Source of the DNA: Sanchytrium tribonematis
Lineage: Eukaryota
Length of the DNA stretch: 33,755 nucleotides
Reading direction: 5' to 3'
Assembly: GCA_018985235.1 (NCBI GenBank)
Contig: JADGIG010000042.1
Location: 1-33,755, forward strand
The stretch's first letter is position 1. The number at the start of each line of letters is the position of its first letter. Shown here piece by piece: positions 487 to 33,755 of this stretch. A model generated the notes under the pieces. It searched no databases. It saw only the letters and a program-made list of their open reading frames with translations, and was not told where the DNA came from. The position numbers and the translations under genes are program-made.

Positions 487-2674
487 CTAGATGCTCGCTA
501 ATACTTCACTGGCTTGTTTATACTTCGCAAGTATTTCCTTGACTTTCAACCTTTCTTTCGCAATCATTTCATCTTCCATGAAGAGTTCTTGAAGGTTATC
601 GGGCTTGTAGAGATTCTCAACTAAATTAGGATGTAAATCAGTAGTCACTGCATTTACGAGATTATGCATGATGGCTTTTGGGACCATGTCCAAGAGCGAC
701 GAGCGAACAATTTCAAAATAAGATATCATTAGTTTTCTGATCAATTGAACTTCAAATTGTTCCTTTTCACTTAATTCAACTTCTTGTGTAAAGGGTGTCA
801 CAATTCCAGGAACAGGCGATGGCAGATTCGAAAGTGAAAATCCATCATTTGGATTTGACAGTATTGGGGACTTTCTTAAAGTATTAGTGCCAGAGGTCGG
901 ACTAGTATTGGTAGGTTTTTGGTCTCGTTTCTTAAAAAAGTATTGCAATAAAGATTCTTTTTGTTCATCTTCGCCAGATATTGCAATTGCAGGCTCTTCA
1001 ACATTGGACTTTTCCGAAAAAGTATCAAAATTGCTGATATTTGGCCCACGAGGTTGAGGCGATCTTGATCTTTGGCGATATGTAGCTGATCGTTCAGTTC
1101 TTGCCTCTCGTTCGATGCCAGGACTTAAAGACCCAGGTGAAATTTTTGTATTTTTTACACTTGCTTCCATTGCAGCGCCAACTCCGATGAATTCCGGATG
1201 ATTTGTATTTATATATGCCATTTGGATTTTGACCAAACTGGCCACATATTGCCGGCAAGGTTCAAGCTTACCCCTAAGTAATTTGTCTACAATTTCTACA
1301 TTAAACATTGTTACCAGTCAGGCTACTCGCGAGTCTAGGATATCTTTGCAAATCTTTAGTGCAACATTCCAAAGATACTTTAACCAATTCGTCGTAAACC
1401 AAATCCACGCATTTCAAAGCAGGGATCTCTAATCTCTTAAGTTGTGGCTTAATTAAAAGCTCAAAAGCTCTCTCTGGAATAAATAGTGTCGTTCGAGGAC
1501 CCGTTGCATTTCTTATAGCTGTTTTAATGTCATGATCGCTTAACTGATCTAATGGGGAGACTTTTTGTAAATGGTCTGCGTATATTGTATGGTATAGATA
1601 ATATATTCTGGCACCTGCGCACAATTCAAGAGTGTCCGCTTGACCATCTATACTCTTTGAAAACTTTTCACTATAACTACTCAAAATTCTGAGCAATGAA
1701 GCCAGACTGACCTCGTGCAACGGACCAAATTGATCATATTCAACCTGATACTGCGAGGCCATCATAGAAATTTTGGATTTTAGTTCTGGCAATTGCTGTC
1801 TAATGTGAGCAGTGAGAATCTTGTTCAGTAGCTGTAACAAATAAGTGACACCACATTTGTGAGCAATAGAAGGGAAATGAGTGGTAAATAGTTCGTGCTC
1901 AAGCTCTCTAGATTCCACATGAGATTTTTGAAATTCTCCAGGCTTACCTGGTTGGTTAATAACGGCAGTAAATCCATAATAAAGTGGATACGTTTTGCCA
2001 ACAAGAATTTCGTGAAGTGAATGTAGACCCATTTTAGTTTTTTCTTCGTTTTCGTTTCTTAAACTATTGAACAACATGTCGCATTTTGTTAAAACTCCAA
2101 TGGTTCTTTTTCCATTCGGATCTACCATTCTGCAAAGTCTCAAAGCATCGCTAGTAGACAAATCATTCATACACGTTGAAATAGCCAAAAGAAGCGCATT
2201 TTCTTTCTTAGCATAGTGAGAAACTAATTGAAATATTTGATCGTCGAGATCATTTGGTTGGTGAATAGTAGGAATTTGAATTAGACCAGGTAAGTCTATC
2301 AAAGTTAAATTAACAACATGTTTCGAATACAATTTTAAGTAAATCGGTGTTGAGCTAATATGTTGAACACTCTTGGCTACACTAATAAGTTCATTTTGAA
2401 CATTTGCAATTGGGACACTATTTTTCAAATGCAAAAATTCTGCATAGTCTTCGTTTTCACTCGCATCTTCTAAATGCACTAATTGCAAAATTAAAGGCTG
2501 CTTAGTGACCATATCCATACCGATAGGTAATATTTCATATCCACATAGGTGATTTATGAGTGATGACTTTCCGCTACTTTGAGCGCCAATAACTACCAAC
2601 GAAGGTAGATCAACCGATAAATGTAAAGTTTGAAGTTGATTAATTAATTCTATGACATTAAGTGAGGCAGACAT
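487..2674 (-). CDS. DNM1: Dynamin-related GTPase, Dnm1/Drp1-like; two exons (2674-1315, 1295-487), 722 aa
   Basis: G1 GAQSSGKSS, DLPG and TKCD motifs; middle domain ELCAGARIYY and AYINTNHPEFIG; C-terminal GED (LMISYFEIVRSSLLDMVPKAIMHNLVN). The two ORFs join in frame (RYPRLASSLT-E-IVDKLL) after removing a 19-nt intron. Confidence 0.85.
1296..1314 (-). other. 19-nt spliceosomal intron (GTAACAATGTTTAATGTAG), phase 1
   Basis: GT..AG; removal fuses the two dynamin ORFs in frame; contains the in-frame TAA that ends the upstream ORF. Confidence 0.93.
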
Positions 2675-7274: not shown

Positions 7275-7527
7275 TTGTGATTGACAGCCAATAGATAATA
7301 AATACAACATTAGCTGCGTATCATTCGTCCTCAGACCAAGTGGATGAAATATTGATTTATTTGCCCCAATCACATAAAATTTTCATAATTGCAAGTGCTT
7401 GCTCACAAAGTATGCAGGTAAACAGAATTCGAAAAATCAAAAGTCTTATGTCGATACGTGTTTACACAGGAATTGTACTGAACAGTAATTTACCAATAAG
7501 TATCCCAAGTTGACTTTGAATCAAAAC

Positions 7528-7791
7528 ATGGGAGAATTTGTAATTGATCCGGAAAATCGTTCTTTTGACAAAGTCGAGCCTATAAATGAGAAAGATGCTT
7601 ATGGCATGATGAAGATTAAGGAAGAACGCATTAGAGAGTCATGGATTAGAATAATGGAGAAAAAGATTCTCGAAGAAGAATTGTCCCTTTGTGTTTTTAG
7701 GGAACAAGTAAATGCACCGGTCAATTGTAGACCGCTTGCAATCGCTTTAGCAGAAAAAATGAAGGGTGCTTTTGTAACTAAGTCCCAATAA
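7528..7791 (+). CDS. NDUFB10: Complex I accessory subunit NDUFB10/PDSW (fungal 12 kDa type)
   Basis: EERIRESWIRIME...LSLCVFREQVNAPVNCRPL with paired Cys; first ATG at 7528. Confidence 0.75.
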   Translation: MGEFVIDPENRSFDKVEPINEKDAYGMMKIKEERIRESWIRIMEKKILEEELSLCVFREQVNAPVNCRPLAIALAEKMKGAFVTKSQ

Positions 7792-7793
7792 AT

Positions 7794-9201
7794 TTACTCA
7801 GTTGGCTCCTCTTCAGGCTGTGCTTCAGCAAGGGTCTTTTTCTCATCTTCAGGATTTGGATCCACCTCTTCGACCACATTGCTAGCATCTTCTTGGAATG
7901 GGATATGGATGGAAAGGTCAGGGGTGAAGTCTTTAATTCCGTTTCCTAAATATATATTAAAAAAGGTTCCTTGTTGAGATACGGTAAAAGCACCAGGCCA
8001 TCTGTGATTTTTAAGAACTACAGTTTTGGATTTTTCTTGTATTCCATGCATCCGAGTAGACCATGAAGGCAAATCAAAGTGGGCTAAATTAAAACTCGTT
8101 ACTTTCATCTTGGTCGATAGAACTCAACAAGCTAGGTCCAATTTCTGGCTTTTCTGCATCAGTATTTGACTCATCGGTTTCTTTCATTTCAGTTTCTTCC
8201 TCTTCTTCTAAATTGACAGATCTTTTCGAAGAAACCCAATTGCATCGGCCTTGAGGTAAAATGTAATTCACCGAATGAACCCAATTTTCTGCTTTAACCA
8301 TTTCTCCAGCGGGTTCAGGCTGAAATTCTGGATTCAGAATAATTTCAGGCTTTGCTTCTTCATCTTCCTTTTCGTCAAAAATAAAAAAATTAATAGGTGC
8401 AACTGATGTACTTGCGTTAATTCTGGCAATTAAAGCACGCAATAATTGTGACTCATTTCCAAAAAATGGCGGGTATCCACGAACGCCATTTTCCAAATAT
8501 CCCGTTAATTGAAATTTTTGGCTTCTAGATGCAACAATATGATGTGGAATGACATCGGGCAATGGCAGCCATTCATCGTAAAGTTTTTTGCAAACAAAAT
8601 AAACATATTTGTTAGGACCTTCATGTTCTTCCACAGGAACAGGTATAGAATGTTGTGCATTTTTAAACCCAACAACAGCACCATAATTTAATTTCTCATA
8701 AACAGACTTATCATAGCTATTCAGATTTTCAGTGAGTTCAGCTTCTACTACATGATAATGACAAGACTTGGCCTCAAATCTACCCCAATATCTACAAGAA
8801 GACAATTTTTTTTGTTCAGCTAATCTTTCAATAGAAATCGCAATTAAATCAAATTCGCTTTTGTCAATCTGTATGTTACCGCATTCCAATAAATATTTTA
8901 ATTTGCATATATCCTGCACAGCTCGTTCTTCTTTGGGTCTAAATTTCAGTAAGTCTTCTAGTTTTTCTTGCTCTGAAATAGTTAAATTTGAAGTTTTTGA
9001 GATTTGCGGTTTTTCCTTTGTCAGAATTCCAAATGCCTCTTTTGGGTTGGCAGGCCTCTCATGCAATATCTTTTTCATGGATTTCACTAAGTGAGCATAT
9101 AGAGATGGTTCAGAATCAAATTCCTGAGCTAAATATGCCTTTGCTTCGTCCAAATTAGAAACTGGCATACAACTCGTTTCAAAGATATTAGAAGCCGACA
9201 T
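7794..9201 (-). CDS. RSPH4: Flagellar radial spoke head protein RSP4/6 (RSPH4A/6A family); two exons (9201-8103, 8083-7794), 462 aa
   Basis: AKAYL...SLYAHL...ILHERP, RYWGRF, GPNKYVYFVC, LPDVIPHHIVASR, LRALIARINASTSVAP, NWVH...ILPQGRC, then after the intron WSTR...RWPGA...NIYLGNG. Confidence 0.9.
8084..8102 (-). other. 19-nt spliceosomal intron (GTAACGAGTTTTAATTTAG), phase 1
   Basis: Removal joins the two RSP4/6 ORFs in frame (IDQDE-T-HFDLPSWSTR); in-frame TAA inside. Confidence 0.92.
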
Positions 9202-12181: not shown

Positions 12182-13129
12182 TTATGTCAATTTCTTGGTG
12201 CGTTTAGACGCCATGTTCACCTTTCGATCGACTTTGTCAACATCGGCATTTATGTCGTCCAAAAGACGATTCTGAAGGGCGATCTCACTACTCATATCCA
12301 ACCCAATTTGCTTTTGAACTCTTAGAGACTGGCGAATCAATTCAAGCTGTTGGTCCTGTTGTTTGAGCATGACTTGGCCATTTGGTAAGCTTGTGGAGGT
12401 GAAAGTGGGCAAGGATTCGGTTTTGTTTAGAGATCCAGGAACAAAATTGTTGTAAGAAGTCACAGGTACTGGTATAGACGTAGAAGAAGGCGAAGAGCTA
12501 CCAAGAACTCGCTTACGCGGTGACTCTTGAATTTGCTTCAATATACTCTGTACTTTCATCTCTAATTCTCTATATGATTTCATTTTTCTCTCGTATTCAC
12601 CCCCAGAACTTTTGTCCGTCTGCATTAATTGATATAATGTGGGAAGAAACTCTTTAATTGGTGTCACTTTAAGATTTATATCTTGATTGATTTTATAGGA
12701 TTGATGGATCTGATTATTACGAACGCATTCCACTCTTTTTTGTATTAATGTCTCTATATCATCCAGTTGATTTTCTATAATTTGAACATCTTTGTAAAAA
12801 TCTTTTTCGAATGTCAAGGATTGTTTAGATAGCTCAACATCGAGTCCCAAGAATTCTCTAAAAATAGGATGATTGATAAACTGAATGCACTGGAGCAAAT
12901 ATTGTCTCAGTTGAAGTTTTCTCTCATCGACTACTGCACTAGAAGTCGACCAATATCTTTTTGGTGGTAAGTTGAAAGGTGGTTTTAATTTATCATGTAA
13001 TTCTAAAAAATCAGAATATCGTTTTTTGATCGTCCATTCTTGCTGGTTGTTGTGATTAATAGTGAAAACATAGACCACATATTGCGATGCAATTGTTTCT
13101 GTTTTGACATTTATAATTTTGATCGACAT
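12182..13129 (-). CDS. VAM7: Vam7-like soluble Qc-SNARE with N-terminal PX domain
   Basis: PX domain (YVVYVF...KKRYSDFLELHDKL...LPPK...ERKLQLRQYL) plus C-terminal SNARE motif (QQDQQLE...EIALQNRLLDDI), no TM anchor. Confidence 0.85.
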   Translation of the reverse strand: MSIKIINVKTETIASQYVVYVFTINHNNQQEWTIKKRYSDFLELHDKLKPPFNLPPKRYWSTSSAVVDERKLQLRQYLLQCIQFINHPIFREFLGLDVELSKQSLTFEKDFYKDVQIIENQLDDIETLIQKRVECVRNNQIHQSYKINQDINLKVTPIKEFLPTLYQLMQTDKSSGGEYERKMKSYRELEMKVQSILKQIQESPRKRVLGSSSPSSTSIPVPVTSYNNFVPGSLNKTESLPTFTSTSLPNGQVMLKQQDQQLELIRQSLRVQKQIGLDMSSEIALQNRLLDDINADVDKVDRKVNMASKRTKKLT

Positions 13130-13159
13130 CGTGTCAAAAAAACGTTTCAGAATTGCAAT

Positions 13160-14282
13160 TTATTTTCTATAGTAATTTTGTGGCACAAACGGCATTTTAG
13201 CAATTTCAAAGTCGTAGAGCTTTTCTCTCACTTTAACTTGACCTGTTGTCTTGGGTGGCAAATAGCACATGGCAATATTTTTCTTAAGCGAAGGAGATGG
13301 ACAACCGCTTGTGATTTTTCCAATGATTTTTCCTTCTTTTAGTATTGGTGCTCCCGATCGAGCTGGAACTTTGGGTATTAGTACGCCCACTCTTTTTTTG
13401 AGTACTCCTAGTTCCTTTTGAGATTTAAAAATGTCATATCCTAGAAATCCACCTTCAGCACGTCTTCTCTTACCAACGGCAAACAATAATGATGCCTCCA
13501 GAATCGTTGTAGTCTCATCAATATCATTTCCGTATAAACACAATCCGGATTCCAGACGTAGACTGTCTCTGGCACCAAGCCCTGCAGGTAAAACCCCACT
13601 TTTTATCAGCTTTTCCGCAAAATTCTCAGCTTTGTCATTATCGATACTTACTTCGACACCGTCTTCGCCTGTATAGCTATGTTAAAAATAATTACCCGCA
13701 TCTTGTTACTCTCAAATATGTATCTTCATATCTGACATTTCGGCCATTCATGAAATATAAATTTTTTAAAGATGTTCCCATAATCTTTTCAAATTTTTCG
13801 ACTGCCCTAGGTCCTTGAATGGCTATAAGGGATTTTTGAATCTCTTTTATAGATAACGAGTTAAAATCAGAAACTTTCTGATGATTCGATAAATATTCAA
13901 TTACTTTATCTCTACATCCCGCGTTACTCACAAGGTAGAAATTATCGTCTTTGACCTTTTGCACAATTGCGTCATCCACAATTGTACCTTTTTCGTTGGT
14001 CAGCAAAGTGTACAATGCTTGTCCATCTTTCAATTCATTTATATCTCCACATGAAATTTTCTCGAGAAATTTGACACTGTCTTTACCAGTTATTGAGGTT
14101 TGCAGCATGTGGCTAACGTCAAATAAAGCTGCGTCACTTCTACAAGCCTGATGTGCTTTCGCATGACCTTCTTTGTATACTACAGGTAAATCATATCCGC
14201 AAAACGAGACCATCTGAGCGCCAAGCTTCTCATGTAGCGAGTATAGTGCAGTTTTAAGATAAGAAACTTTGGAAGTAAACAT
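13160..14282 (-). CDS. GCV1: Glycine cleavage system T protein (aminomethyltransferase), mitochondrial; two exons (14282-13696, 13676-13160), 367 aa
   Basis: KTALYSLH, LFDVSHM, GTIVDD, IAIQGP, spliced TRCGYTGEDGVE, GLGARDSLRLESGLCLYGND, ITSGCPSPSL. Confidence 0.95.
13677..13695 (-). other. 19-nt spliceosomal intron (GTAATTATTTTTAACATAG), phase 2
   Basis: Removal restores the conserved TRCG-YTGEDG motif exactly. Confidence 0.96.
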
Positions 14283-14314
14283 TTGCCTCAAAAGCGGGGA
14301 GCCATTCAAAAAAT

Positions 14315-15709
14315 TTAGTTGGAACCTTTATTTGTTTTTAAGAGCTTTGCAAGCATGAATGCTATATCCAAACTTTGTTCGTAATTGAGCCTGGGATCGC
14401 AATTCGACAAATAATTTGATGGAAGATCTTTATCAACTAATTCCATGGTACCTCCTACACATTCAGTTACACTTTCTCCTGTCATTTCTAAATGAATGCC
14501 ATTTAGTTTGGAGTTATTTTGGTGATGTATAGAAAACGATTTTTTGATTTCTTCTACAATGGATGCATAGATTCGAGTTTTCTTTCCAGACTCACTTTGA
14601 ATAGTATTTCCATGACAAGGATCTACAATCCAACATGGACGTCTATTCTCATTCGCAACAGCTCGGATTATGTTGGGCAAGTATTCTTCCACTTTATCTT
14701 TGCCAAAACGGGTGATGAGGACAATTTTGCCAATTTCTTTATCCGGGTTCAATAAATCGAGTAAATTGATGAGTTCTTGCACCTTCATGCTGGGGCCCAC
14801 TTTGACTCCGATGGGATTTGCTATGCCTCTAAAGAACTCGACATGGGCATGATCAAGCTGCCGTGTTCTATCACCAATCCACAAAATGTGAGCACTCAAG
14901 TCAAAATAGTCCTCGCCTACACTTCTAGTCATTTGTTCTTCATAATTCAGATGCAGTCCTTCATGGCTCGTGTAAAAGTCTACCGTTGACAAAGGCCCTT
15001 TGGAAGCAAATGTGGAGCCTGGGTTATAATCATCCGCTCCAACTGTTTTTAAAAATTCCAAAGCATTCATCATGTCATTTATAATATTCGTATATTCGCG
15101 TTTGATCTCTTCATTAACAACATGAGAAAAATTCCACTGATGTGGATCATGTAAATCTGCAAATCCAGAATTCAGGATTCCTCTGATGAAATTAAGAGTA
15201 GCAGAAGAAAAACAATGGCTTTGGAATAATCTGTTGGGATCAGGATCTCTGGCAGTAGGATCTGTAGAATTGATATTATCACCGCGATACGTAAGAACCT
15301 CTTTGCCCAAATGCATTTCTGTAGGACTAGACCTCGGTTTAGCATATTGACCAGCGATACGTCCAATTTTAACAACTGGGACTCTTGCCAAGTAAGAAAT
15401 AACCAATGACATTTGAAGCATAATTTTGATTTTTGACACAATCACTGACTCTTGACAATCCTCAAAAGATTCTGCACAATCGCCACCTTGCAGTATAAAT
15501 TTCTCACCAAGTGCTGCTGATCTTAACTGCTCTTTCAATTGATTAATTTCCTGAGGAAAAACTAATGGCGGCATTCGTCCCAATTGATCAAGAATTTGTG
15601 CATATGCTTCTTCGTTCTTATATTCCACCTGTTGCTTTGCGGGAAACTTCTTGTACGAGTCTTTTTTCCACATAAAATGGTTACAAGGGACTGGCAAAAT
15701 TGACAACAT
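14315..15709 (-). CDS. Class II DAHP synthase (phospho-2-dehydro-3-deoxyheptonate aldolase)
   Basis: QGGDCAESF, GRIAGQYAKPRS, YRGDNIN, FYTSHEGL, LWIGDRTRQ, DPCHGNT, GIHLEMTG, CDPRLN. Confidence 0.95.
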   Translation of the reverse strand: MLSILPVPCNHFMWKKDSYKKFPAKQQVEYKNEEAYAQILDQLGRMPPLVFPQEINQLKEQLRSAALGEKFILQGGDCAESFEDCQESVIVSKIKIMLQMSLVISYLARVPVVKIGRIAGQYAKPRSSPTEMHLGKEVLTYRGDNINSTDPTARDPDPNRLFQSHCFSSATLNFIRGILNSGFADLHDPHQWNFSHVVNEEIKREYTNIINDMMNALEFLKTVGADDYNPGSTFASKGPLSTVDFYTSHEGLHLNYEEQMTRSVGEDYFDLSAHILWIGDRTRQLDHAHVEFFRGIANPIGVKVGPSMKVQELINLLDLLNPDKEIGKIVLITRFGKDKVEEYLPNIIRAVANENRRPCWIVDPCHGNTIQSESGKKTRIYASIVEEIKKSFSIHHQNNSKLNGIHLEMTGESVTECVGGTMELVDKDLPSNYLSNCDPRLNYEQSLDIAFMLAKLLKTNKGSN

Positions 15710-15799
15710 CTGAGTAAAATTATTAAATTAAATTTAATGTAAAAGACAAAAATTCGGATTAGTTGTCTTAAACAATTGAATTCATAGTTCCCCCAAATT

Positions 15800-16582
15800 A
15801 TGATACGAGGAAGAAAGTTGAAATATATTTGGATAACCATTCCAATTTTTAGCGCTTTATTGTACGTTGATCGGACCCGAACAACGTTCAGGAGTACTAA
15901 ATTGTTTAATAAGGACATTAAAACAAATTACTTGGAGTTTAGAATCAAAGAACCCGTGAAGGCAAAAAAAATTCCGTTTTACTATGTTGTGAAAGAACCA
16001 AATATACAAGCTATCCGACAATATACGCCGATAATTCTTAAAAATGACTTCCTTCAGTTTTTTGTCAAGCTATACCCAAAAAGTCTAATGGGAAGATACT
16101 TATGCAATGTTGAGGAAATGCAATTTAAGGGACCTTATATCCATCCACAATTAGAAAGCATAGGAATCGAAAAATGTATTGAAAATAATGAAAACATCTT
16201 GTGCATTGCTGGAGGAACTGGAATATTACCATTTTATCAACTTTTACAGAAGTATGGAGAAGCTAGCCTCGATTTATTTTATTGCTCATCCGACGATTTT
16301 CTTAAAAAAGAACTTGGCTCTTTCGCTAATGTCAGATATTTCAATCCTGCCAACCCTTTGAACTTACATAGTAGCAGCAATTTGAAAAAATACAAGTATA
16401 TATTGATATGTGGCCCAGAAAGACTAACTCATGAATTGGCAGGGTACGATAACGATGAATTTTATTCCCTGGACGGCTTATACCGTCAAGAACATAATTT
16501 ACCCATAGACGTGCCTTTAAAACCACTTCGTGGTAAGTTAAAAGAACTTGGACTCAATGATGAACAAGTAGTTGTTCTATAA
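15800..16582 (+). CDS. Cytochrome b5 reductase-like FAD/NAD(P) oxidoreductase (Cyc2/MCR1-like) with N-terminal membrane anchor
   Basis: RQYTP, VKLYPKSLMGRYL, KGP, IAGGTGILPFYQL and ICGP are FNR-family motifs. Confidence 0.8.
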   Translation: MIRGRKLKYIWITIPIFSALLYVDRTRTTFRSTKLFNKDIKTNYLEFRIKEPVKAKKIPFYYVVKEPNIQAIRQYTPIILKNDFLQFFVKLYPKSLMGRYLCNVEEMQFKGPYIHPQLESIGIEKCIENNENILCIAGGTGILPFYQLLQKYGEASLDLFYCSSDDFLKKELGSFANVRYFNPANPLNLHSSSNLKKYKYILICGPERLTHELAGYDNDEFYSLDGLYRQEHNLPIDVPLKPLRGKLKELGLNDEQVVVL

Positions 16583-16631
16583 GCTGAATAAAAGTATTAT
16601 CTGAATATTTTTTTCTAGGTGAAACAAACAA

Positions 16632-18342
16632 ATGCCGAATCAAAATAATCTTGGTTCGCCCATTTTAATATATGCGGACCATATAAAATACAAGGGTTCT
16701 GTTATAAAAGGTTACCTTTACACCAAATTTATTCAAATATTAGAATCTGGAAAAATTCCTTCTGAATTAAGTGGAGTATTGCCTCCCCAAGTGGAAATAG
16801 AAATTTATGATGAAAGCCTGCAATTAATTCATAAAGATAACATAAAATTGTCTATGAGTCTTGCTGCCAAATTTACTTTAACAGAGCAGCAAGGATCATC
16901 AATTTTCGAAAATCTGCGTTTAGAACAAGATAAGTTAAAGCTGATTCCTCTGAATTTAAATAATAACCCTTTAATTTTTGTTAACAGAAAGCATGAAAAT
17001 TTTGAACAAAATTGGAGTAATACAATATCTAAAAAGAGGAAAATTATAGAAGAAGTTGAAATTTTTGAGACTACAAAAGAATTGGAAGATATTGATCTTG
17101 ATTTGTACAATATACCTGTAAATACACTTTTTATATCCAAGCATCAAAAAGTCCTTGAAGAAATCAATAAGCGGCTTTCAATTCCAATCGAGACCATCGA
17201 GGAAAGTAAGGTTAAACCGCCTAATCAAGGACACGTACTTGTGCAAACCATTAAATTCAAAAGCAAATTTCCGGAAAAGGCTACCAGTTACGCTACCATG
17301 AATCTATATTCATCCTTAAGTGTTGAGAACATAGAAATTATAATGTACTTTGGTTCTGCAGTAGATACAATTTTAAACGGGTTTAAGTATAGAATACCTA
17401 TCGGAAGGCGCGATAATATACCTACATTTGTTGAAAGAATCAAAATTAGCATGCAGAATTTTTACACGTTAGACTACGAATCAAAATTGAACATAGCCTC
17501 ACCACCTACAAGACCGATACAGACACCCGAACAGAATATGTCAGAAGATCAAAAATCTAATTTGATGCAATACCAACAGCAGATGCAGCAGCAGCAACAA
17601 CAAATTCCTCAGCAAATGCCACAACCGGTTCCACAGATGATGCAACCAGCATATGCAATGAGACCAGTATTTTTAGTTTATGTAGAATTATCCTACCAAT
17701 ATACCTCAAACTGTTGCTACTCAAAACAGCAACCCACAAGGTAGTCCTTCAATGAATAATACACACTCACCCAGACCGATTTTCTCGCCATATAATCGGC
17801 CGTATAGACCACAAATGCAGCAACAACTTCAAAATAATCCAAATTCCAGCCCACTTATGAATGGTCAAAATTACCCAGCTCCACAACACGGTTATCCAGT
17901 ATTCCAACCTACTCCTGGTTATCGGGGGCAGTTTTCACAACAGCAATACTCGCCGCAGCAATTACAACAAATGCAACAAATGCAAATGCAATATCAGCAA
18001 CATATGCATTATCAGCAGCAAATGCAACATCAAATGCCGAATCAACAAATGCAAAATCAGCAAATGCAAAGTCAACAAATGATAAACCAGCAAATGCCAA
18101 ATCAGCAAGTTCAGAATCAGCAAATGCCAAATCAAATGCCAAATCAGCAAATGATGCCACAAAATATGATGCCACAGCAACCAATTATAATACAACAACC
18201 TGTGATGCAGCAACAAATGATGCCACCACAGCCCATTGGCCGTCGTCCTACCGCGACCATGTACCGAAATTCTATAAGCAACATGAAGGCTTCTGGAATG
18301 CAGGTGCCATACCAAAGACCGCCCCAACACCCTCAATCCTGA
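16632..18342 (+). CDS. Spt20-like SAGA subunit with Q/M/P-rich low-complexity C-terminus; two exons (16632-17666, 17686-18342), 563 aa
   Basis: N-terminal ILIYADHIKY...FIQILESGKIPSEL...VEIEIYD resembles the Spt20 domain. A 19-nt intron joins the two Q-rich ORFs in frame. Confidence 0.6.
17667..17685 (+). other. 19-nt spliceosomal intron (GTATTTTTAGTTTATGTAG), phase 0
   Basis: Removal gives AMRP-NYPTNIPQ...GSPSMNN, in frame with ORF 17752..18342; matches the consensus of the other eight. Confidence 0.88.
17941..18230 (+). repeat. Low-complexity Gln-rich coding repeats (QQMPN/QQMQN units)
   Basis: Recurrent cagcaaatgccaaat / caacaaatgcaa units. Confidence 0.85.
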
Positions 18343-18367
18343 ATGCCGCAGGCTAATTAGAATGTAA

Positions 18368-19096
18368 TTAAAGTTTATTATCCATTAAAATATGTTTTTC
18401 AAATTCAATAAGTTGGCAAATAAAGCCTAAATGTGGGTTAGCGGTGGGCGACTTCTTTTTTACCAATAAAAGTGCCTCCTGAAAGCTAATTTTTTGATCG
18501 TACATTATGTAAGCAATAACAACAGAAGCACTTCTCGAAACTCCACATTGACAATGTATCATTACATTTTTGTTTTTCCGTCTTTGCTTTTCAATAAATG
18601 AGAATGCTACATTTAAATACTCTATAAAATTGTCTTGATAATGGGACCAGTTAAATTTTGCATATTCAATAGTTGAATTCTCAAATGCGGATTCGTCCAA
18701 TTCATTCAGGATTGTAGATGGCCTTCTGCCCTGAGGTCCGCCTGATTCCAAAATAGCTTGGACCGCAAGAGATGGTTTTGGAAACGAAAATGTTGGGAGT
18801 TCAAAAGCACACAATTTCTCATCCTGAGTCTCCGGCGCTGATTTTGGGCCTTCATAAAATCCATCAGTGGGAGTCTGGACTTCTTTGGCGACATTAAGTA
18901 TAGCATTAATTCTATGTTTTTTCAGTAATTGTGGATTTTCGGCAATCTTGGAAGAACCTAAAAATAAATGAGGAATGACTTCAATTGGAGTTTCAAGGCT
19001 TTCTTCAACGTAGCTCTTTTCGACTGGCTTTTCAGATTTCACCTGCGATATATTCAAAGACAGTGGCTTTGACATTTTTTTACCTTTGACTGGCAT
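18368..19096 (-). CDS. Dual-specificity (MAP kinase) phosphatase, Msg5/Pmp1-like
   Basis: PIEVIPHLFLGS, ILNVAKEV, catalytic HCQCGVSRSASVVIAYIM, PHLGFICQL. Confidence 0.9.
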   Translation of the reverse strand: MPVKGKKMSKPLSLNISQVKSEKPVEKSYVEESLETPIEVIPHLFLGSSKIAENPQLLKKHRINAILNVAKEVQTPTDGFYEGPKSAPETQDEKLCAFELPTFSFPKPSLAVQAILESGGPQGRRPSTILNELDESAFENSTIEYAKFNWSHYQDNFIEYLNVAFSFIEKQRRKNKNVMIHCQCGVSRSASVVIAYIMYDQKISFQEALLLVKKKSPTANPHLGFICQLIEFEKHILMDNKL

Positions 19097-19104
19097 GGCA
19101 ATCT

Positions 19105-19235
19105 TTTACGTGGATGAGTGATTGGCAATTTTTTAATTTTTAAACCATTTTTAAGAAAGATGATTGGTAAATGAGAATCCCATGTTGCACTAAATGAAAC
19201 AAAATTGAACACACGAGAACACCATTTTGACGTGG
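19105..19235. promoter_or_regulatory. Candidate promoter of the dual-specificity phosphatase: two CCAAT boxes (TGATTGG at 19119, 19161) and two ACGTGG elements (19108, 19230)
   Basis: Motifs are directly visible in a 162-nt intergenic gap; function is inferred only. Confidence 0.35.
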
Positions 19236-19258
19236 TAAATCAAAGTAAGGTAGAAAGT

Positions 19259-20192
19259 TTATTTGTAACGTTCAGCCATTGCTTTAGCCATTGATACACC
19301 AAGCTGCGCAGGACTGTCACAAACATGAGCACCTGCTGATCTAAGCGCCTTTACCTTATCCTCCGCCTTGCCCTTACCACCAGAAACAATTGCCCCTTAA
19401 TAAATTTTAATTACCAGCATGCCCCATTCTACGACCTGGAGGAGCGGTTCTTCCAGCAATAAAGGAAACAACAGGCTTGTTGTTGACGTTTTTCAACTTA
19501 AGATGTTCGGCCGCTTCTTCTTCAGCGGATCCACCAATTTCCCCAATAAGAATAATACCTTCTGTCTCTGGATCATTTAAAAATAACTCGACTGCGTCTA
19601 CAAAATTGGTGCCATTAAATGGATCTCCACCAATACCAATACATAGAGACTGTCCCAATCCTGCTTTGGTTGTTTGGTCCACCGCTTCGTATGTTAGAGT
19701 TCCGCTTCTAGAAACTATTCCGATGTTTCCCTTTTTATGAATTCTACCAGGCATAATCCCAATTTTACATTCTTCAGGTTTTATTATTCCGGGGCAATTG
19801 GGCCCCACTAGTCTCGACTGGGAATTTTTCAAAGCGTCCTTTACATAAATCATATCTTTTTGCGGTATTCCTTCTGTTATAGTGACTATTAAGGGAACTT
19901 CAGCCTCGATAGCTTCAATCATTGCAGCTTTTGCAAATGGCGGTGGTACATATATCACACTAGCATCAACTTGAAGATCTTTCTTTAAATCATTGATTGT
20001 AGCGTAAACTGGGAGGCCTAAGTGTTGAGTACCCGCCTTGCTTGGAGATATTCCTCCTACCATTTTCGTGCCATAATTGATCGATTGTTCGCAATGAAAT
20101 GTTGCAGTTTTACCCGTAAATCCTTGACATATGACATTGGAATTTTTATTGATTTGCAAAGCCTTCAAATGTTGTAAAAATCGTTTTTGCAT
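19259..20192 (-). CDS. LSC1: Succinyl-CoA ligase alpha subunit, mitochondrial; two exons (20192-19415, 19395-19259), 304 aa
   Basis: [36 protein letters not shown], spliced [14 protein letters not shown]. Confidence 0.96.
19396..19414 (-). other. 19-nt spliceosomal intron (GTAATTAAAATTTATTAAG), phase 1, AAG acceptor
   Basis: Removal restores the phospho-His loop GHAGAI and the missing C-terminal 45 residues. Confidence 0.95.
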
Positions 20193-20220
20193 ACTCCTTT
20201 GATTCAAAAACTATTTATTT

Positions 20221-21270
20221 TTATGCCACAATCTCGAATTCGGCTTTTCTTAAAGCGTCTTCGTCACCGTACTTGAATTCAATGTTCAACTTTATCTCAC
20301 AGTTTACGGGTGACTGGATCCAGCACCAATATTTCTCAATTCCAAAAACCATAAAGGAATTTGGCATGAAATTTGGAACCGGATCGTTTGGAATGGGCTC
20401 ATCTGCCGCCAGGGCATTCAAAGTGACCTGAAATTTTGATTCCTGGTAATGAATCGTTAATGATATAATATTATTTTGAGTATTTGTAAGGCGGATTAAG
20501 ACTTGATCATCTTGTTTTTTGTAAATCAGTGCTCGCGGCAAATATTGGTTCGCACAGAATGAAACTGTGGGCATTGTTTGATTAACCTTAGGCTCTAATT
20601 TGGTAAGCGTGAAACCACATTGGCATAAAATATCTCTTTTTGTTTTAAGTCTAATTCTTTCAGGTAAAAAATTCGTTTTATATTCTGAATTAAAAATTGG
20701 ATAATAAGAGATTTGAGCCGACTGATTTGCGTCTGGTATATTAAACAAAACTTGATCATTGTTGGAGTATGTGGTTTTTAATAAAAAAGTCATTTTTTCA
20801 TCATCGGTGGCATCAATTTCTCGCAATGGAAATTCCAAATCATCAGAAATGGGACCCTTTGAAAGTTTGTACCTATTTGGTTTACTTTGAAACGAGTGGA
20901 TATCCTTCAGATTTTGCTTTCTCTTTTCAAATTGTTTGACGAAGGCCGAGTCATTTGTTGCTTTTAAAATTTTGCCGCCAATTCCGGTACTTTTTTCAAA
21001 TTCAAGATATTGGTAATTGCAGTAGCAGCATATAAGTTTGTTTTTGTATACTGACAGAGTCACAGAGCATAAAGGACAGCACAAGCATGTTCTTGTGCAT
21101 TTACCTAAATCCTGAGTCAATGACAAACTTGGAACATCAAATAAACAATTCGGACAATATAGAGATATTACAACGTCGTCTACATTTTTTGTAAACTTAT
21201 TGCACGCAGGACAGTAGTAGAAATTGTACAATTCGTCCAAATCGTTATCAATCTTGTATAGTACAGACAT
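20221..21270 (-). CDS. DCTN4: Dynactin subunit p62 (DCTN4)
   Basis: LYNFYYCPAC, YCPNCLFDVPS, CTRTCLCCPLC, CCYC, LPERIRLKTKR..CQCGFTLTKLE. Confidence 0.85.
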   Translation of the reverse strand: MSVLYKIDNDLDELYNFYYCPACNKFTKNVDDVVISLYCPNCLFDVPSLSLTQDLGKCTRTCLCCPLCSVTLSVYKNKLICCYCNYQYLEFEKSTGIGGKILKATNDSAFVKQFEKRKQNLKDIHSFQSKPNRYKLSKGPISDDLEFPLREIDATDDEKMTFLLKTTYSNNDQVLFNIPDANQSAQISYYPIFNSEYKTNFLPERIRLKTKRDILCQCGFTLTKLEPKVNQTMPTVSFCANQYLPRALIYKKQDDQVLIRLTNTQNNIISLTIHYQESKFQVTLNALAADEPIPNDPVPNFMPNSFMVFGIEKYWCWIQSPVNCEIKLNIEFKYGDEDALRKAEFEIVA

Positions 21271-21291
21271 TTTCAAGGAGAAACATATTTA

Positions 21292-22247: not shown

Positions 22248-22264
22248 ATTTTACTGTTATCACA

Positions 22265-22829
22265 TCATGAGAACATTGATTTCGCTACTGTCGACAGGAT
22301 TGCAAACTTTCTCAATTTATCGAAAGATATTTCTTGCTCTACCAGCTCTATGTTTTCTGAGGCAAACAATTTTCTCAAATAAAATTGTGATTCAGTTTCA
22401 TCAGGCTCAGACTCTAAACTCTCATGCGAATTTGACTCCATCTCTAGTCCATCGACTTTTGAATCTTTTTTGGAGACCGTTCTTTTCCTAAATGTTTTTA
22501 AATCTTTTGGGTTTATTCCGTGATTGACAAAAACGTGTCGGTTTAAATTTTGTTTGTGCTGTATTAATCAAAATTACCTTGAATGAATATCCACAGTCGG
22601 CAACAGGACACTCATAAGATCGAAATGGAACATGGCATTTCAAATGAGTCTTCAGTCTAAACCTTGTTGTTGTTTTAAAAGCACACTCTTTCCACAAGCA
22701 AGGTTGCCCAGACGAATTGGAAAAACACAATTTCTGCAAGTGTTGTTTTTCGATGTGTAAAAACAAATCCTTCTCTGATTCGAAGCGCGACTCGCATAAA
22801 TTCCATAAACAGATATGTTGATCTTCCAT
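22265..22829 (-). CDS. C2H2 zinc-finger transcription factor (PacC/Gli-like, three fingers); two exons (22829-22578, 22558-22265), 181 aa
   Basis: CLWNLC...HIEKQH, CLWKEC...HLKCH; the third finger CPVADCGYSFK-HKQNLNRHVFVNH is completed only after splicing; exon 2 is open to TGA at 22265. Confidence 0.85.
22559..22577 (-). other. 19-nt spliceosomal intron (GTAATTTTGATTAATACAG), phase 0
   Basis: Removal supplies both His ligands of zinc finger 3. Confidence 0.93.
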
Positions 22830-25750: not shown

Positions 25751-26726
25751 ATGTTCTATCGTATATGGGCTATTTCTCTCGTACTGCTAGCAATTGTTAT
25801 ATTATGGCCGTCTCCGGAGTCTATTAAGACAAGAAAATCACCCACCGCACCGGTGAATGACAAAATCAGATGGCTAATTTTACATGTTGATCAAAATTTG
25901 TTATTAGATAAATTTAACAGAACTTTGGGTTCATTAAATTATAAAGATAATACTCTTTACTTTAACCCGTATACGTACAATTTATGTTATAATTTAGACA
26001 GCGTTAGCTTGCCGTCAGAATGTATCATTCATACAAATTATGAAAATTCTACTGAGCTGCTTACTCAATGCTTAATTGCAACAATGAGGGGGGACATCGA
26101 AAGAAAAGGTGAAGCATTTAAAAGATGGTATGGTGCTTCAGTCCATTTTAGCTACGATGGTGTCTTGGATATGCTCGATATTCTTGACAACTTTGCTTGG
26201 GTCAGCACCGACTTTGATGCGCAAGGTAACCTGTATTTATTTAGATTATTCGGACTATTTTCAAACTCACTATAATAACGATTCTTTGCCGTATAGTGTT
26301 TTGGTTCCTGAGGCGCCATCTGCGCAAGTACCTAGTGTCATAATGAACACCAAAAACACACAAATATGTTTGTCCTCAACTGTATGTGCTAATATCAGTA
26401 CAAGCTGTTTATATTACCCTTCTTCATTCAAAAATGCTACTGTTAATAACACACACTATATATATCAATCGAATCTGAGAAGTTTCAATCAATCTGTCAG
26501 TCTAAAATGTCAAAATACGACTGACCTATCCGGTGATATTATCAATTATAACCCGAACTTATACAAAATTCAACAAAGTATTACAAAATGTTGTAACCCA
26601 GAGATTCTTAAGCCAAATCCAGTCGTTAAAGAGAATGATGAAACTAAATTCAAAGAGAAATCAAACGGCGCATATAATGTTTTCTTGTCTGTGGGTGCAA
26701 TTTTGTTTGTCTTTCTGATTTATTAA
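25751..26726 (+). CDS. Unknown secreted/surface glycoprotein (signal anchor, Cys-rich, C-terminal hydrophobic tail); two exons (25751-26225, 26245-26726), 318 aa
   Basis: Two overlapping ORFs are merged in frame by a consensus 19-nt intron; many N-x-S/T sequons; C-terminal hydrophobic stretch with no cytosolic tail. Confidence 0.7.
26226..26244 (+). other. 19-nt spliceosomal intron (GTAACCTGTATTTATTTAG), phase 1
   Basis: Joins ORF 25748..26275 to ORF 26109..26726 in frame (FDAQ-D-YSDYF); full match to the consensus. Confidence 0.88.
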
Positions 26727-26777: not shown

Positions 26778-28050
26778 ATGAAAGTTGTAGTGTCCTATAA
26801 AGGTACTAAATATAGTTTCGACGTTGCGGGCAATACGATTGGAAAAGATTTTAAACAGAAAGTCTTTGAAAGAACTGAATTACAAGTCGAACGACAGAAG
26901 TTGCTCGTGAAAGGCAAGAAAATCGAAGATGATACAAATCTGAATGATATTTTACAGGAGGGTAGTGTCATCTTTTTAATGGGATCCAATGCTACAATTG
27001 CTGCGCCTAAACCTGTCGAGAAAATGGAATCAGATAAGCCTTCGTCCAAAAAAATTAGCCTTCCTGTGGGTTTGAAAAATTTGGGAAACACTTGCTATTT
27101 AAATGCTACTATTCAATGCTTCAAACTTGTTCCTGAGCTTGTGGATGGTCTGAATCTTGCAAACCCAACTCTTCAATTGCTATTTAAAGAAATGGATAAA
27201 AATGTTGAAAAACAAGAACCCGTAAATCCAATTGTATTTTACACTTTATTTAAAACTGAGTTCCCTCAATTTTCACAAACGCAAACAGTTTCCACCGGAA
27301 TGGGGAATGTTCAGACAAACGCTCAACAAGATGCTTCCGAGAGCTGGAGTCAGCTCTTAGAGTCTTTTTTTCGGAAAAATCCCAAATTGGAGGACCTGTT
27401 TAGAATCCAATTACTAGAAACACACAAATCTGAAGAGTCACCAAGTGAAACCTCGGTCAAAACAATTTTTGAGTCCATGATGAAAATCAATATCAATCAA
27501 ACCACAACTTACTTAGAAGCTGGCATAAAAGACTCGCTCCACAGCCATTTGGAAAAAAGATCTGATGTTTTGAACAAACAAATTCAATTTCAGACAACCA
27601 GCCAGTTCGCATCGTTGCCCAGATATTTAAACGTAAATTTAGTTCGATTTTACTGGAAGCAACCAAGCAATGTGAAAGCAAAAATACTGAAAAGCGTTAA
27701 ATTTCCATTTGTTTTGGATTTGTATGACCACTGCACCGACGAGTACAAAAATATAATTAAGGATTCAAGAGTCAACGCTCTTAAGGACAATCTTAGCAGT
27801 GAAGGGGAAGTAAGTGGTGTGTATGATCTAGTCGGAGTACTGACTCATATAGGAAGATCATCAGATAGTGGTCATTGTACTTTAAAATAACTTAGACATT
27901 GCTTGGATAAAAAAAGATAAGCTTTGGATTAAATGTGACGATGACACAATGAGTGTTGTTGATGAAAATGAAATTATTAAACTTTATGGCTCTGCAGATT
28001 GGCATTCTGGGTATATTTTGTTATATCAAGCCCGACTTGCCAAGAAATAA
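26778..28050 (+). CDS. UBP6: Proteasome-associated deubiquitinase Ubp6/USP14; two exons (26778-27876, 27896-28050), 417 aa
   Basis: N-terminal UBL (ERQKLLVKG), Cys box GLKNLGNTCYLNA, QQDASE, His box GRSSDSGH-YIAW restored by splicing, CDDD, ADWHSGYILLY. Confidence 0.95.
27877..27895 (+). other. 19-nt spliceosomal intron (GTACTTTAAAATAACTTAG), phase 1
   Basis: Removal restores the USP His-box SGHY motif and the C-terminal 51 residues. Confidence 0.96.
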
Positions 28051-31072: not shown

Positions 31073-31113
31073 GTAAAATGGTCGTACTCCTTGCACAATC
31101 AGTATTAGAATAT

Positions 31114-31806: not shown

Positions 31807-33755
31807 ATGGGGCTTCGTGGCATAACTGCAAATGGCTCGACATTTGAAATCCCAAAGACTCAAGACATGTTAAATTCCATCTTCAGGCCCAAAGAAGTCA
31901 ATTTGTTTGATGTTATTACATTGTCTTGCTTAGTTGTCCAAGCAATTGGCTTTTTTGTAGGTATGCCAAGGTGGTATACAATAACTATGTTTATATTTTG
32001 GAGACTCGCATATAACATAGGTCTTGGTTATATTCTAAAAATGCAATCCGACCACAAATGGCTTTTTTTGTTGGCAAAACAATACCAGCTTTTTGATACT
32101 GCGAAATCATCCCCATTGCAAAAATTTATTAAAACTCAACTTATCAAGAAAATGGGCAATGACTATAAGTATGAAGATGCCCCATTAGAACTGAACGTAT
32201 GGCTTCTTTTTCGAGCTTTAGTTGATATTATTTTATCGAATGATTTTTGTGCATTTGTAATTTTAACGTTGGTGCACGCAGACTATTCTTTTAAAACCTT
32301 TATGGATTTTATGCGACTTTTTATAGGTATCGGGTTATTGGTGTTCAACGTATGGGTCAAGTTGGATGCACATCGGGTAGTTGGAGATTTTGCGTGGTTT
32401 TGGGGAGACTTTTTCTTCCTATTAGATAATCCTTCTCTTTGTTTTGATGGAGTGTATGATGTCGCTCCTCATCCTATGTATTCGATAGGATATATTGGAA
32501 TGTACGGAGCCAGTTTGATCTCTAAGTCGTACACGGTTTTGTATTCCAGTTTATTAGCCCACACTTTGCAGTTTATTTTCTTGGCGGTTGTAGAAAATCC
32601 TCATATTAATAAGATTTACGGTCCTGAAGACTTTAAAAAACAATTTCTGAATTCAAATCCGCATTTATATCCTATAATTAGAACTTATTTTCAAAGAGAT
32701 TTGATTGTTTTTAAAAATTTTGATATTTTTCGCTCTCATGATCTCGCTTTAGTAATGCTAATAGTTTATGCTATTTTAATCGGTTTACTTCACCAATGGC
32801 TTGCTGTCATTCAAGCTATCTTCTGGATTATTATACATTCGTATGGAACTGGACTTGTTTTATCCTTACAAAGCGCTAGAAAATTATGGACAAGGCATTT
32901 CCTCAAAAACGGATTCTCGAACAAAGAAGCATTTGATAATTGGAAAAAGATGTATAACGCTAGTTTATGCCTGATGAATATCAGCGTCGCTGTTGCTGCT
33001 CTTCGCTACTACTCTTTTCCTGACGATTGGAGTTACGGCTCGTCCGCTTTGCAACATGTTGTTGGAGCTCTTTTAATTTTGCTTCAAGTTTACGTCAGTA
33101 TGTCCGTATACGAGGTTCTTGGAGAATTTGGCTGGTTTTACGGTGACTTTTTTTTGGAAACTGTCCCAACGCAACTCACTTATACTGGAATTTATCGCTA
33201 CATGAATAATCCTGATCGGATACTAGGTCAAGCTGGGTTTTGGGGAATCACTGTGATTTGCAATAGTTGGGTTGTATTTTCCATTACTTTATTTTCGTAT
33301 TTAAGCAATAATTTTGTTCTTCAGTTTGTAGAGAAGTATTTAATTATAATTTAGTCCTCATATGCACTATTTGTACGGTAATTTTGTGCGCAAAGAGTCG
33401 GGCGTAGAAAAGACACTGAAAAAGATTATGCCGCCACTGGCCAGGTTTCTTGAGATCTTTGAAAAGGAACGTCATCTCAACAGAAGCCAACCAACACCGT
33501 TAAGGAAAATGTCTGAGATTGTTGATAAGGCCGCACCCAAAATAAGAGATGTTTTTGACAAGGTCGAAGAAACATTAGATACGGCGCATATTAGGCGATC
33601 GTCAAGTTTCGATGTTGTCCCTCTTCCACAATCTAGCCTTGAGATTTATAGCGTCAATTTAAGCAAAAAGCAATACACACTGGCGGAGCCTGTAAAAATT
33701 AAATACACCATCCCCTCGGATCATGGAAAATTTGATTGGATTGCAATTTATAAAC
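31807..33755 (+). CDS. CHO2: Phosphatidylethanolamine N-methyltransferase Cho2/Pem1; exon 1 31807-33335, exon 2 from 33355 running off the window
   Basis: FEIPKTQDM, FWRLAYNIGLG, DFAWFWGDFFF, APHPMYSIGY, VENPHI, second PEMT repeat GWFYGDFF, spliced VENPHMHYLYG; exon 2 is open to the window end (DWIAIY). Confidence 0.95.
33336..33354 (+). other. 19-nt spliceosomal intron (GTATTTAATTATAATTTAG), phase 2
   Basis: Removal gives FVE-N-PHM, mirroring the VENPH motif of the first PEMT repeat. Confidence 0.95.

What the first reader, a model, noticed from the sequence alone, without database searches (positions are those of the whole stretch)
8084..8102. Fixed-position branch point: invariant T12-W13-A14-Y15 in all nine 19-nt introns
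Ungapped alignment: GTAACAATGTTTAATGTAG, GTAACGAGTTTTAATTTAG, GTAATTATTTTTAACATAG, GTATTTTTAGTTTATGTAG, GTAATTAAAATTTATTAAG, GTAATTTTGATTAATACAG, GTAACCTGTATTTATTTAG, GTACTTTAAAATAACTTAG, GTATTTAATTATAATTTAG. Positions 1-3 are GTA in 9/9, position 12 is T in 9/9, 13 is A/T, 14 is A in 9/9, 15 is a pyrimidine in 9/9, and the end is TAG (7), CAG (1) or AAG (1). TWAY resembles the core of the canonical CTRAY branch motif. Inference: the branch A lies 6 nt from the 3' end, giving a lariat loop of only 14 nt and no polypyrimidine tract, while the 5' site is reduced to GTA. U1 and U2 could hardly bind at the same time in the usual way. As I recall, Stentor introns have their conserved A at the same distance from the 3' end, which would be convergence on a minimal geometry. 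The coordinates given are one example.
Basis: partly seen in the sequence, partly recalled or inferred. Interest (0 to 1): 0.85.

Follow-up and report, generated by a model that had tools for sequence, protein, structure and literature searches.

The report
Nineteen-base introns in sanchytrid fungi
Nine genes in this stretch of an algae-parasitising sanchytrid fungus are each broken by a 19-base segment with intron ends and an A six bases from the far end; these are likely real introns, shorter than any fungal intron I found in print, with that A as the likely branch point, and public protein sets for these fungi stop at them.

Summary
Confirmed, with one correction. All nine 19-nt GTA...AG segments exist. 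Removing them restores homologue register in 7 of 9 genes. T12/A14 invariance beats within-intron shuffles (p 0.0003; 0.004 for the seven pinned ones). The window is a sanchytrid fungus related to Amoeboradix gromovi. Read-through tails of ten orthologous genes in relatives show introns at the same positions, 19-20 nt (one likely 22). The motif follows the 3' end (A at -6), not position 14. The same -6 geometry is published for Stentor and Yarrowia. So the mechanism is known in kind; the lineage and length look unreported. U2AF65 loss is not supported: A. gromovi is annotated with U2AF2, U2AF1, SF1, U1-70K and Dbr1, but not Slu7 or Prp18. No RNA reads, snRNAs or lariats could be tested, so branching is inferred. 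The scan earlier noted longer tiny introns in Rozella and Neolecta, none in sanchytrids.

The parts
8084..8102 (-). 19-nt phase-1 intron in the radial spoke head (RSPH4/6) gene; predicted branch A at 8089, T(-8) at 8091
   Evidence: Pfam Radial_spoke: exon 1 ends at profile 405, exon-2 residue 3 is profile 409. PDB 7dmp_B 599|604 and 8j07_G 598|603 are in exact register. Gapless junction against P0126/P0127, and three relatives stop at the same site.
8103..9201 (-). RSPH4/6 exon 1 (366 codons)
7794..8083 (-). RSPH4/6 exon 2
1296..1314 (-). 19-nt phase-1 intron in the dynamin-family GTPase gene; predicted branch A at 1301
   Evidence: Dynamin_M profile: exon-1 residue 452 of 453 = 241, exon-2 residue 2 = 245, exact register
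13677..13695 (-). 19-nt phase-2 intron in the glycine cleavage T-protein gene; predicted branch A at 13682
   Evidence: GCV_T profile 184|186
17667..17685 (+). 19-nt phase-0 intron in a Q-rich gene (Spt20-like by recall only); predicted branch A at 17680; ends not fixed by homology
   Evidence: Joins 345- and 218-codon frames; no Pfam hit; other frame-restoring excisions exist
19396..19414 (-). 19-nt phase-1 intron, AAG end, in the succinyl-CoA synthetase alpha gene; predicted branch A at 19401
   Evidence: P0002 (91% identical, 304 aa on a 926-nt contig) reads straight through the junction into the same exon-2 peptide; four relatives stop at the site
22559..22577 (-). 19-nt phase-0 intron in a C2H2 zinc-finger gene; predicted branch A at 22564
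   Evidence: zf-H2C2_2 match runs to the last exon-1 residue. Excision completes the F-x5-L-x2-H finger spacing (junction; spacing rule from general knowledge).
26226..26244 (+). 19-nt phase-1 intron in an unnamed gene with a hydrophobic N-terminus and C-terminus (secreted/anchored by inspection); predicted branch A at 26239; ends not fixed by homology
   Evidence: Joins 158- and 159-codon frames; no Pfam hit
27877..27895 (+). 19-nt phase-1 intron in the His box of the Ubp6/USP14-type gene; predicted branch A at 27890
   Evidence: UCH profile 214|216; a GH-Y motif was found in the C-terminal half of 140 of 149 homologues
33336..33354 (+). 19-nt phase-2 intron in the Cho2-type phospholipid methyltransferase gene; predicted branch A at 33349
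   Evidence: Gapless junction against 8 of 8 full-length fungal proteins aligned; three relatives and two distant fungal records stop at the site
27743..27761 (+). Decoy: full GTA/TWAY/AAG match inside the Ubp6 exon; A at +5 and A-rich; likely not spliced
   Evidence: Lies in the open frame; excision would stop the protein after 17 residues

Best explanation
The nine 19-nt segments break nine reading frames, start GTA, end AG and share T-W-A-Y at -8 to -5; they are likely U2-type spliceosomal introns in which the A at -6 is the predicted branch point. Shown by sequence and calls: position, length, motif, frame restoration, the same intron sites in relatives, and movement of the motif with the 3' end when the intron is 20 nt. 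Inferred mechanism: the last 8 bases (TWAY-N-N-AG) are read as one compact 3' unit by SF1 and U2AF. U2 snRNA then pairs weakly with T(-8), W(-7) and Y(-5) and bulges A(-6), which attacks G1 to give a 14-nt lariat loop with a 5-nt tail. The first AG after the branch is used at near-minimal distance, a setting in which yeast does not need Slu7/Prp18. The weak GTA-N-Y donor is likely chosen by distance upstream of the branch (13 nt here, 14-16 in some relatives), which would explain the near-uniform length. Retention always shifts the frame (19 = 3n+1), so missed introns would likely be cleared by nonsense-mediated decay. The introns are likely shrunken old introns rather than new insertions. Sequential rather than simultaneous U1/U2 binding is plausible but untested (about 0.4).
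For: Exact profile register in 4 of 4 genes where both exons hit one Pfam family, plus SucD, Cho2 and the zinc finger: 7 of 9 pinned. P0002 is the intron-free form of a 91%-identical relative. Shuffle p 0.00026 / 0.0041, and 1 of 37 background 19-mers. Relatives: in the 4 of 10 tails where an end AG is visible, Y(-5) is forced in 4, A(-6) forced in 3 and allowed in 1, T(-8) forced in 2 and allowed in 2. Four further phase-1 tails stop exactly at 12-14 (null 0.071 each) although positions 4-11 differ among them. The P0137 intron is pinned at 20 nt by out-of-frame exon 2 (7/16 identical, score 26 vs next 9) and reads AC-N-AA-Y before GTAG, a canonical-looking branch at -6. The A. gromovi annotation lists Prp8, SF3B1, SF1, U2AF1, U2AF2, U1-70K, Prp22, Prp17, Yju2, Cwc25, Isy1, Dbr1 and Upf1. 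The same -6 spacing is published for Stentor and Y. lipolytica. Slu7 is unnecessary at 9 nt or fewer (PMC10158995 passage).
Against: No transcript, lariat or snRNA of this organism was seen; P0002 could be an intronless gene rather than an mRNA. n = 9 from one window, and 2 of 9 have ends not fixed by homology. A full motif match sits in a coding exon (27743-27761), so the listed signals are not sufficient. Position 13 is T in 3 of 9, a mismatch to canonical U2, and predicted U2 pairing is weak. Relatives' introns are back-translated, not read: lengths for P0125 and P0138 assume the stop is the terminal TAG, P0121 fits only if it is 22 nt (or 25 or more), and three of the four 12-14 stops are the same gene. 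Slu7/Prp18 'absence' rests on an annotation of 3,755 of 7,220 intron-blind protein calls.
Confidence: 0.85

Rival explanations
1. The introns are real, but T(-8)/A(-6) is an extended 3' splice-site word read by a protein such as U2AF (as with the extended acceptor of C. elegans), and branching happens at a variable upstream A.
For: The motif moves with the 3' end, which this reading also predicts. U2AF1 and U2AF2 are annotated in A. gromovi. In myxozoan short introns the A-rich spot moves away from the AG as length grows (PMC13644364).
Against: The pattern has the shape of a branch core (T two before, pyrimidine after the A). One relative shows AC-N-AA-Y at this place. No other inner column holds an invariant A. 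An upstream A would make the loop shorter still.
Confidence: 0.08
2. The invariance is a by-product: AT-rich background, choice of intron ends by the motif, or selection for an in-frame TAA stop.
For: Inner positions are 88% A+T. In 3 of 5 phase-1 window introns the first in-frame stop is the TAA at 12-14.
Against: Composition-preserving shuffles give p 0.0041 on the seven homology-pinned introns alone. The motif also holds in the 4 phase-0 and phase-2 introns, where 12-14 is not a codon, and reads TTA in 3 of 9. A 19-nt intron shifts the frame anyway.
Confidence: 0.04
3. The segments are not spliceosomal introns but assembly errors, pseudogene lesions, mobile insertions or sites of another excision chemistry.
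For: No RNA of this organism was examined.
Against: All nine have GT..AG ends and one length but unrelated inner sequence. The same sites are interrupted in 10 of 10 truncated close-relative records for three genes and in two distant fungal Cho2 records. Core spliceosome and debranching genes are annotated in A. gromovi.
Confidence: 0.03

Closest known systems
Stentor coeruleus 15-16-nt introns (PMC9505925; parts 1-3 of 6 read)
   Same: GT-AG, strict GUA start, AU-rich, branch A at -6 at both lengths, 5-nt 3' tail, minority of genes interrupted (18% there; 9 of 32 gene models here).
   Different: Ciliate, independent origin. Loop is 10-11 nt against 14 here. The paper finds no strong branch consensus, whereas T(-8) and Y(-5) are invariant here. 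It reports a 5' positional bias; here all nine lie at 46% or later in the coding sequence.
Yarrowia lipolytica fixed branch-to-AG spacing (Irimia and Roy 2008, PMC2483917; passages read)
   Same: A fungus with the branch A at -6 (TACTAAC + 2 nt + AG) and no pyrimidine tract.
   Different: Long introns, strong ACTAAC branch and GTGAGT donor; here 19 nt with a four-base branch core and a weak donor.
Bigelowiella natans nucleomorph 19-nt introns (PMC2483917; passages read)
   Same: Same length, donor largely GT(A).
   Different: Relict endosymbiont nucleus of an alga; that paper reports no branch signature, whereas one is visible here.
Mikrocytos mackini 16-17-nt introns (PMC10245619; passages read)
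   Same: Parasite with uniform ultrashort introns.
   Different: Rhizarian; 224 introns and a 17-19-protein spliceosome with no U1 snRNA among those identified. A. gromovi is annotated with a much fuller set, including U1-70K.
Encephalitozoon cuniculi introns, 22-76 nt (PMC3629993, PMC6349667; passages read) and myxobolid introns, median 22-27 nt (PMC13644364; parts 1-2 of 3 read)
   Same: Ultrashort introns in opisthokont parasites; reduced GTa donor in myxobolids; branch core near the 3' end in E. cuniculi.
   Different: All nine here are shorter than the E. cuniculi minimum and the myxobolid medians, and have one length. E. cuniculi introns are few, 5'-biased and have strict motifs. Myxobolid A residues shift with length.

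Membership tests
U2-type spliceosomal intron | GT...AG ends whose removal restores the protein | tested here: met
   9/9 GT-AG; register exact in 7 of 9, frame-joining only in 2
U2-type spliceosomal intron | Branch-site core with an A flanked by T(-2) and a pyrimidine | tested here: met
   TWAY 9/9, shuffle p 0.00026; A(-6) forced in 3 of 4 relatives' tails with a visible AG
U2-type spliceosomal intron | Removal from RNA in this organism | tested here: inconclusive
   No reads could be laid; only the intron-free P0002 of a 91%-identical relative
U2-type spliceosomal intron | Lariat formed at the predicted A | not testable with these tools
   Needs lariat sequencing
U2-type spliceosomal intron | U1, U2, U4, U5, U6 snRNAs with matching recognition sequences | not testable with these tools
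   No genome held; no Rfam match in the window
U2-type spliceosomal intron | Major-spliceosome proteins in the lineage | tested here: met
   Published eggNOG table of A. gromovi: Prp8, SF3B1, SF1, U2AF1/2, U1-70K, Prp22, Dbr1. This is a relative's annotation, not the window's genome.
Stentor-type ultrashort introns with fixed -6 branch | Branch A counted from the 3' end across lengths | tested here: met
   19-nt (window, P0138) and 20-nt (P0137 pinned, P0125 inferred) cases all place A at -6
Stentor-type ultrashort introns with fixed -6 branch | Length 15-16 nt | tested here: not met
   19 nt in 9/9; works like them, is not a member by descent
Stentor-type ultrashort introns with fixed -6 branch | Genome-wide uniform length | not testable with these tools
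   One window only; relatives show 19, 20 and likely 22 nt
U12-type intron | Extended RTATCCT donor and CCTTAAC branch (motifs recalled) | tested here: not met
   Column counts show no such motifs

The most novel reading that the evidence does not exclude
Sanchytrid fungi carry the shortest genome-wide intron set of any opisthokont: some thousands of near-uniform 19-nt introns defined by a branch-anchored ruler. They are spliced by a spliceosome that keeps U1 and U2AF but has lost the second-step pair Slu7/Prp18 because the AG always lies 5 nt from the branch, and whose U1/U6 have co-changed to accept a pyrimidine at +5. Published sanchytrid proteomes, and some gene-loss calls made from them, are distorted by these unseen introns.
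Probability: 0.3. Interest if true: 0.8.

Novelty: new variant of a known kind. Interest (0 to 1): 0.6.

Why it matters
It adds an independent origin of ultrashort introns inside true fungi, below the 22-nt minimum reported for E. cuniculi, and it lands on the same -6 branch spacing as Stentor and Yarrowia. That points to a physical lower limit of the spliceosome. Sanchytrids grow in culture on algal hosts (recalled) and their relatives vary between 19 and about 22 nt, so the 3'-anchored ruler and the predicted dispensability of Slu7/Prp18 are directly testable. In practice, 9 of 32 gene models here are interrupted, and the public protein records stop at the introns. The published proteomes were called with TransDecoder on genomic contigs, so they need re-annotation before phylogenomic or gene-loss use.

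Tried and rejected
No whole genome is held, so no genome-wide logo or snRNA search was possible. No RNA holder was listed for window 13000-22900; this is no evidence either way, and read laying was not used. Scans of viral contigs (2) and genome contigs (1) with sanchytrid alignments found no relative. The Ubp6 search of 50% representatives returned no separate sanchytrid record. Rfam and ARAGORN found nothing in the window. Introns of other lengths were sought three ways: a motif-blind frame-joining scan (119 excisions passed, 24 AT-rich ones inspected), a motif scan at 14-40 nt, and a relaxed 15-25-nt plus 5' micro-exon scan. None was convincing by inspection. Stop-free 3n introns without the motif could still be missed. 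Two GTG-starting 19-mers (minus strand 20211-20229 and 23380-23398) were rejected because they would fuse separate genes; the second carries TWAY and was not tested against homologues. The careful Cho2 tree did not finish; the quick tree is quoted. Two exon-2 look-ups found no exact record. Earlier-findings look-ups by genome and by relatives were empty.

Full report
Observation. The column counts are as stated: GTA 9/9, T12 9/9, position 13 A6/T3, A14 9/9, position 15 T7/C2, ends TAG 7, CAG 1, AAG 1. The same pattern search returned a tenth match, 27743-27761, inside the open frame of the Ubp6 gene; cutting it out would stop the protein 17 residues later. The motif therefore fits all nine but is not sufficient.

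More than chance. Inner positions are 88% A+T, so I shuffled positions 4-16 within each intron 200,000 times. Two or more invariant columns appeared in 0.00026 of shuffles for all nine and 0.0041 for the seven whose ends are fixed by homology; a shared T-N-A at any offset appeared in 0 and 0.00017. Of the other 19-mers in the window, 1 of 37 GTA..AG and 8 of 183 GT..AG have TWAY at 12-15. A scan that ignores the motif and asks only for GT-AG excisions of 12-60 nt joining long frames passed 119 excisions; the 24 AT-rich ones I inspected include all nine. Scans for other lengths and for short first exons gave nothing convincing.

They behave as introns. In 4 of 4 genes where both exons hit the same Pfam family, the profile positions run on without gap or overlap after removal of exactly 19 nt: Dynamin_M 241|245, Radial_spoke 405|409, GCV_T 184|186, UCH 214|216. 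For the focal intron, two solved radial-spoke chains give the same register, and the junction aligns without a gap to P0126 and P0127. For SucD, P0002 (91% identical, 304 residues on a 926-nt contig) reads through the junction into the peptide that exon 2 encodes. It is either an mRNA contig or an intronless gene; I cannot tell which. Cho2 aligns gap-free across the junction with 8 of 8 full-length fungal proteins used. Excision in the zinc-finger gene completes a C2H2 finger (spacing rule from general knowledge). The Q-rich gene and the unnamed secreted-type gene have no homologue support, so 2 of 9 rest on frame-joining and composition.

Organism. The nearest named homologues are Amoeboradix gromovi proteins: SucD 89%, radial spoke head 56%, Cho2 75%. 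A. gromovi belongs to Sanchytriomycota. In a quick Cho2 tree of 22 chosen rows the window groups with A. gromovi and two unnamed records (support 100) and these join Allomyces (94, flagged as long branches meeting). The window has 36% G+C, and 32 gene models cover 96% of it. I read it as a sanchytrid related to, but not the same as, A. gromovi.

Relatives show where the anchor is. No relative's DNA could be fetched, but public proteins called without splicing run into the intron and can be back-translated. Ten such tails were examined (SucD 4, radial spoke head 3, Cho2 3; P0136 and P0405 repeat two of them and were not counted). All ten break at the window's intron site. One is uninformative. 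Four phase-1 tails have their first stop exactly at positions 12-14 while differing from each other at 4-11; the null chance is 0.071 each and 0.0008 for 4 of 7, but three are the same gene, so they are not independent. In four tails an end AG is visible: Y(-5) is forced in 4, A(-6) forced in 3 and allowed in 1, T(-8) forced in 2 and allowed in 2. Two of these are 20 nt long. P0137 is pinned at 20 by its out-of-frame run into exon 2 (7 of 16 residues identical to the window's exon 2 in that frame, score 26 against 9 for the next length) and reads AC-N-AA-Y-GTAG. P0125 is 20 nt if its stop is the terminal TAG. P0121 excludes the motif at 17-21 nt and fits at 22. So the literal T12-W13-A14-Y15 fails in 3 of 9 informative relatives, whereas a motif counted from the 3' end can be placed in all 9, with the caveat that length is a free choice in several. 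Two distant unnamed fungal Cho2 records (P0154, P0170) stop after the same residues, which suggests an old intron position that shrank; parallel gain is not excluded.

A second signal. Position +5, canonically G, is a pyrimidine in 9/9 window introns. The shuffle p is 0.006 for that column but 0.05 for any column, so it is weak alone. In relatives G is excluded at +5 in 7 of 9 informative tails, and the exonic decoy has A there.

Machinery. The eggNOG table for A. gromovi in PMC8371127 (supplement 4, 3,755 rows; the Sanchytrium sheet is cut to 171 rows) lists SF3B1, U2AF1, Prp8, SF1/BBP, U2AF2, U1-70K, Dbr1, Upf1, Yju2, Cwc25, Isy1, Prp22, Prp17 and a U1A/U2B'' protein. So loss of U2AF65 is not supported. 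Slu7, Prp18 and U1C gave no row by name or orthologue code. Only about half of the 7,220 intron-blind protein calls are annotated, so this is a lead. It fits published yeast work: Slu7 is unnecessary when branch and acceptor are 9 nt or less apart (PMC10158995, passages), and Prp18 is proposed to impose a minimum distance (PMC10711555, passages).

Mechanism. Shown: sites, length, motif, frame restoration, 3' anchoring in relatives. Inferred: a major spliceosome reads TWAY-N-N-AG as one unit, U2 bulges A(-6), a 14-nt loop with a 5-nt tail forms, the AG is used at near-minimal distance, and the weak donor is picked by distance. Predicted pairing to a canonical U2 is weak and rich in G-U pairs. 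Retention shifts the frame, and Upf1 is annotated in the relative. Whether U1 and U2 bind in turn could not be tested; Stentor splices 10-11-nt loops with all five snRNAs conserved.

What is known. The -6 spacing is published for Stentor (PMC9505925, parts 1-3 of 6 read) and follows from the 2-nt branch-to-AG distance given for Y. lipolytica; 19-nt introns are known from the B. natans nucleomorph (PMC2483917, passages). Mikrocytids have 16-17 nt (PMC10245619, passages), E. cuniculi 22-76 nt (PMC3629993, passages), myxobolids medians of 22-27 nt (PMC13644364, parts 1-2 of 3), and two Rozella introns are given as about 30 nt (PMC6349667, passages). Searches for sanchytrid + intron (2 papers), Amoeboradix + introns (6), Sanchytrium + intron (8) and ultra-short introns/fungi/Rozella (15 of 330 listed) showed no title or abstract start on sanchytrid nuclear introns. 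In the two sanchytrid papers that I searched inside, 'intron' occurs once each, in the reference list. The library lacks most subscription papers, and the main supplementary PDF of PMC8371127 could not be read, so 'unreported' is provisional. That paper called proteins with TransDecoder on genomic contigs. Accordingly 7 of 7 unspliced window frames looked up are EukProt records, as is the SucD one, and 3 of 3 named A. gromovi orthologues end at the intron. At 9 introns per 33.8 kb, a genome of about 11 Mb would hold roughly 3,000; this is an extrapolation from one window.

Verdict. A real feature with a known kind of mechanism, in a new lineage and at a length I could not find reported for any fungus. 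Branch use, snRNAs and genome-wide uniformity remain untested. Interest 0.6.

Noticed in passing
all nine introns: Every intron lies in the middle or 3' part of its gene (46-88% of the coding sequence where the gene is complete), one per gene, with no motif-conforming 5'-proximal intron; intron-poor genomes usually show the opposite bias. Post hoc chance about 0.004.
   Followed up: partly
window 7794-9201 (-): An intact radial spoke head gene, with orthologues in three relatives, in a lineage described as having non-motile flagella without a central pair.
   Followed up: no
window 23380-23398 (-): A GTG...GAG 19-mer with TWAY whose removal would fuse the RNase PH-family gene to the overlapping 155-codon frame; read as coding overlap, not tested against homologues.
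   Followed up: partly
window 14315-14327, 23339-23394, 31114-31150: Stop-to-stop frames of neighbouring same-strand genes overlap by 13, 56 and 37 nt, and many gaps are under 20 nt.
   Followed up: no
window 31114-31719 (-) and 30383-31150 (-): A vasohibin-family gene (Pfam E 4e-17) next to a methyltransferase that looks like Hen1 by recall (only a weak Methyltransf_23 hit).
   Followed up: no
window 14315-15727 (-): Class-II DAHP synthase (Pfam E 1e-184) in a fungal parasite described as metabolically reduced.
   Followed up: no
P0121 and P0137: SucD and Cho2 orthologues both list a longest contig of 35,193 nt, hinting that the two genes are linked in that relative as in the window and that it has longer (20 and likely 22 nt) introns.
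   Followed up: partly
window 7489-7791 (+): A 100-codon frame resembling complex I subunit NDUFB10 by recall; no Pfam hit.
   Followed up: no
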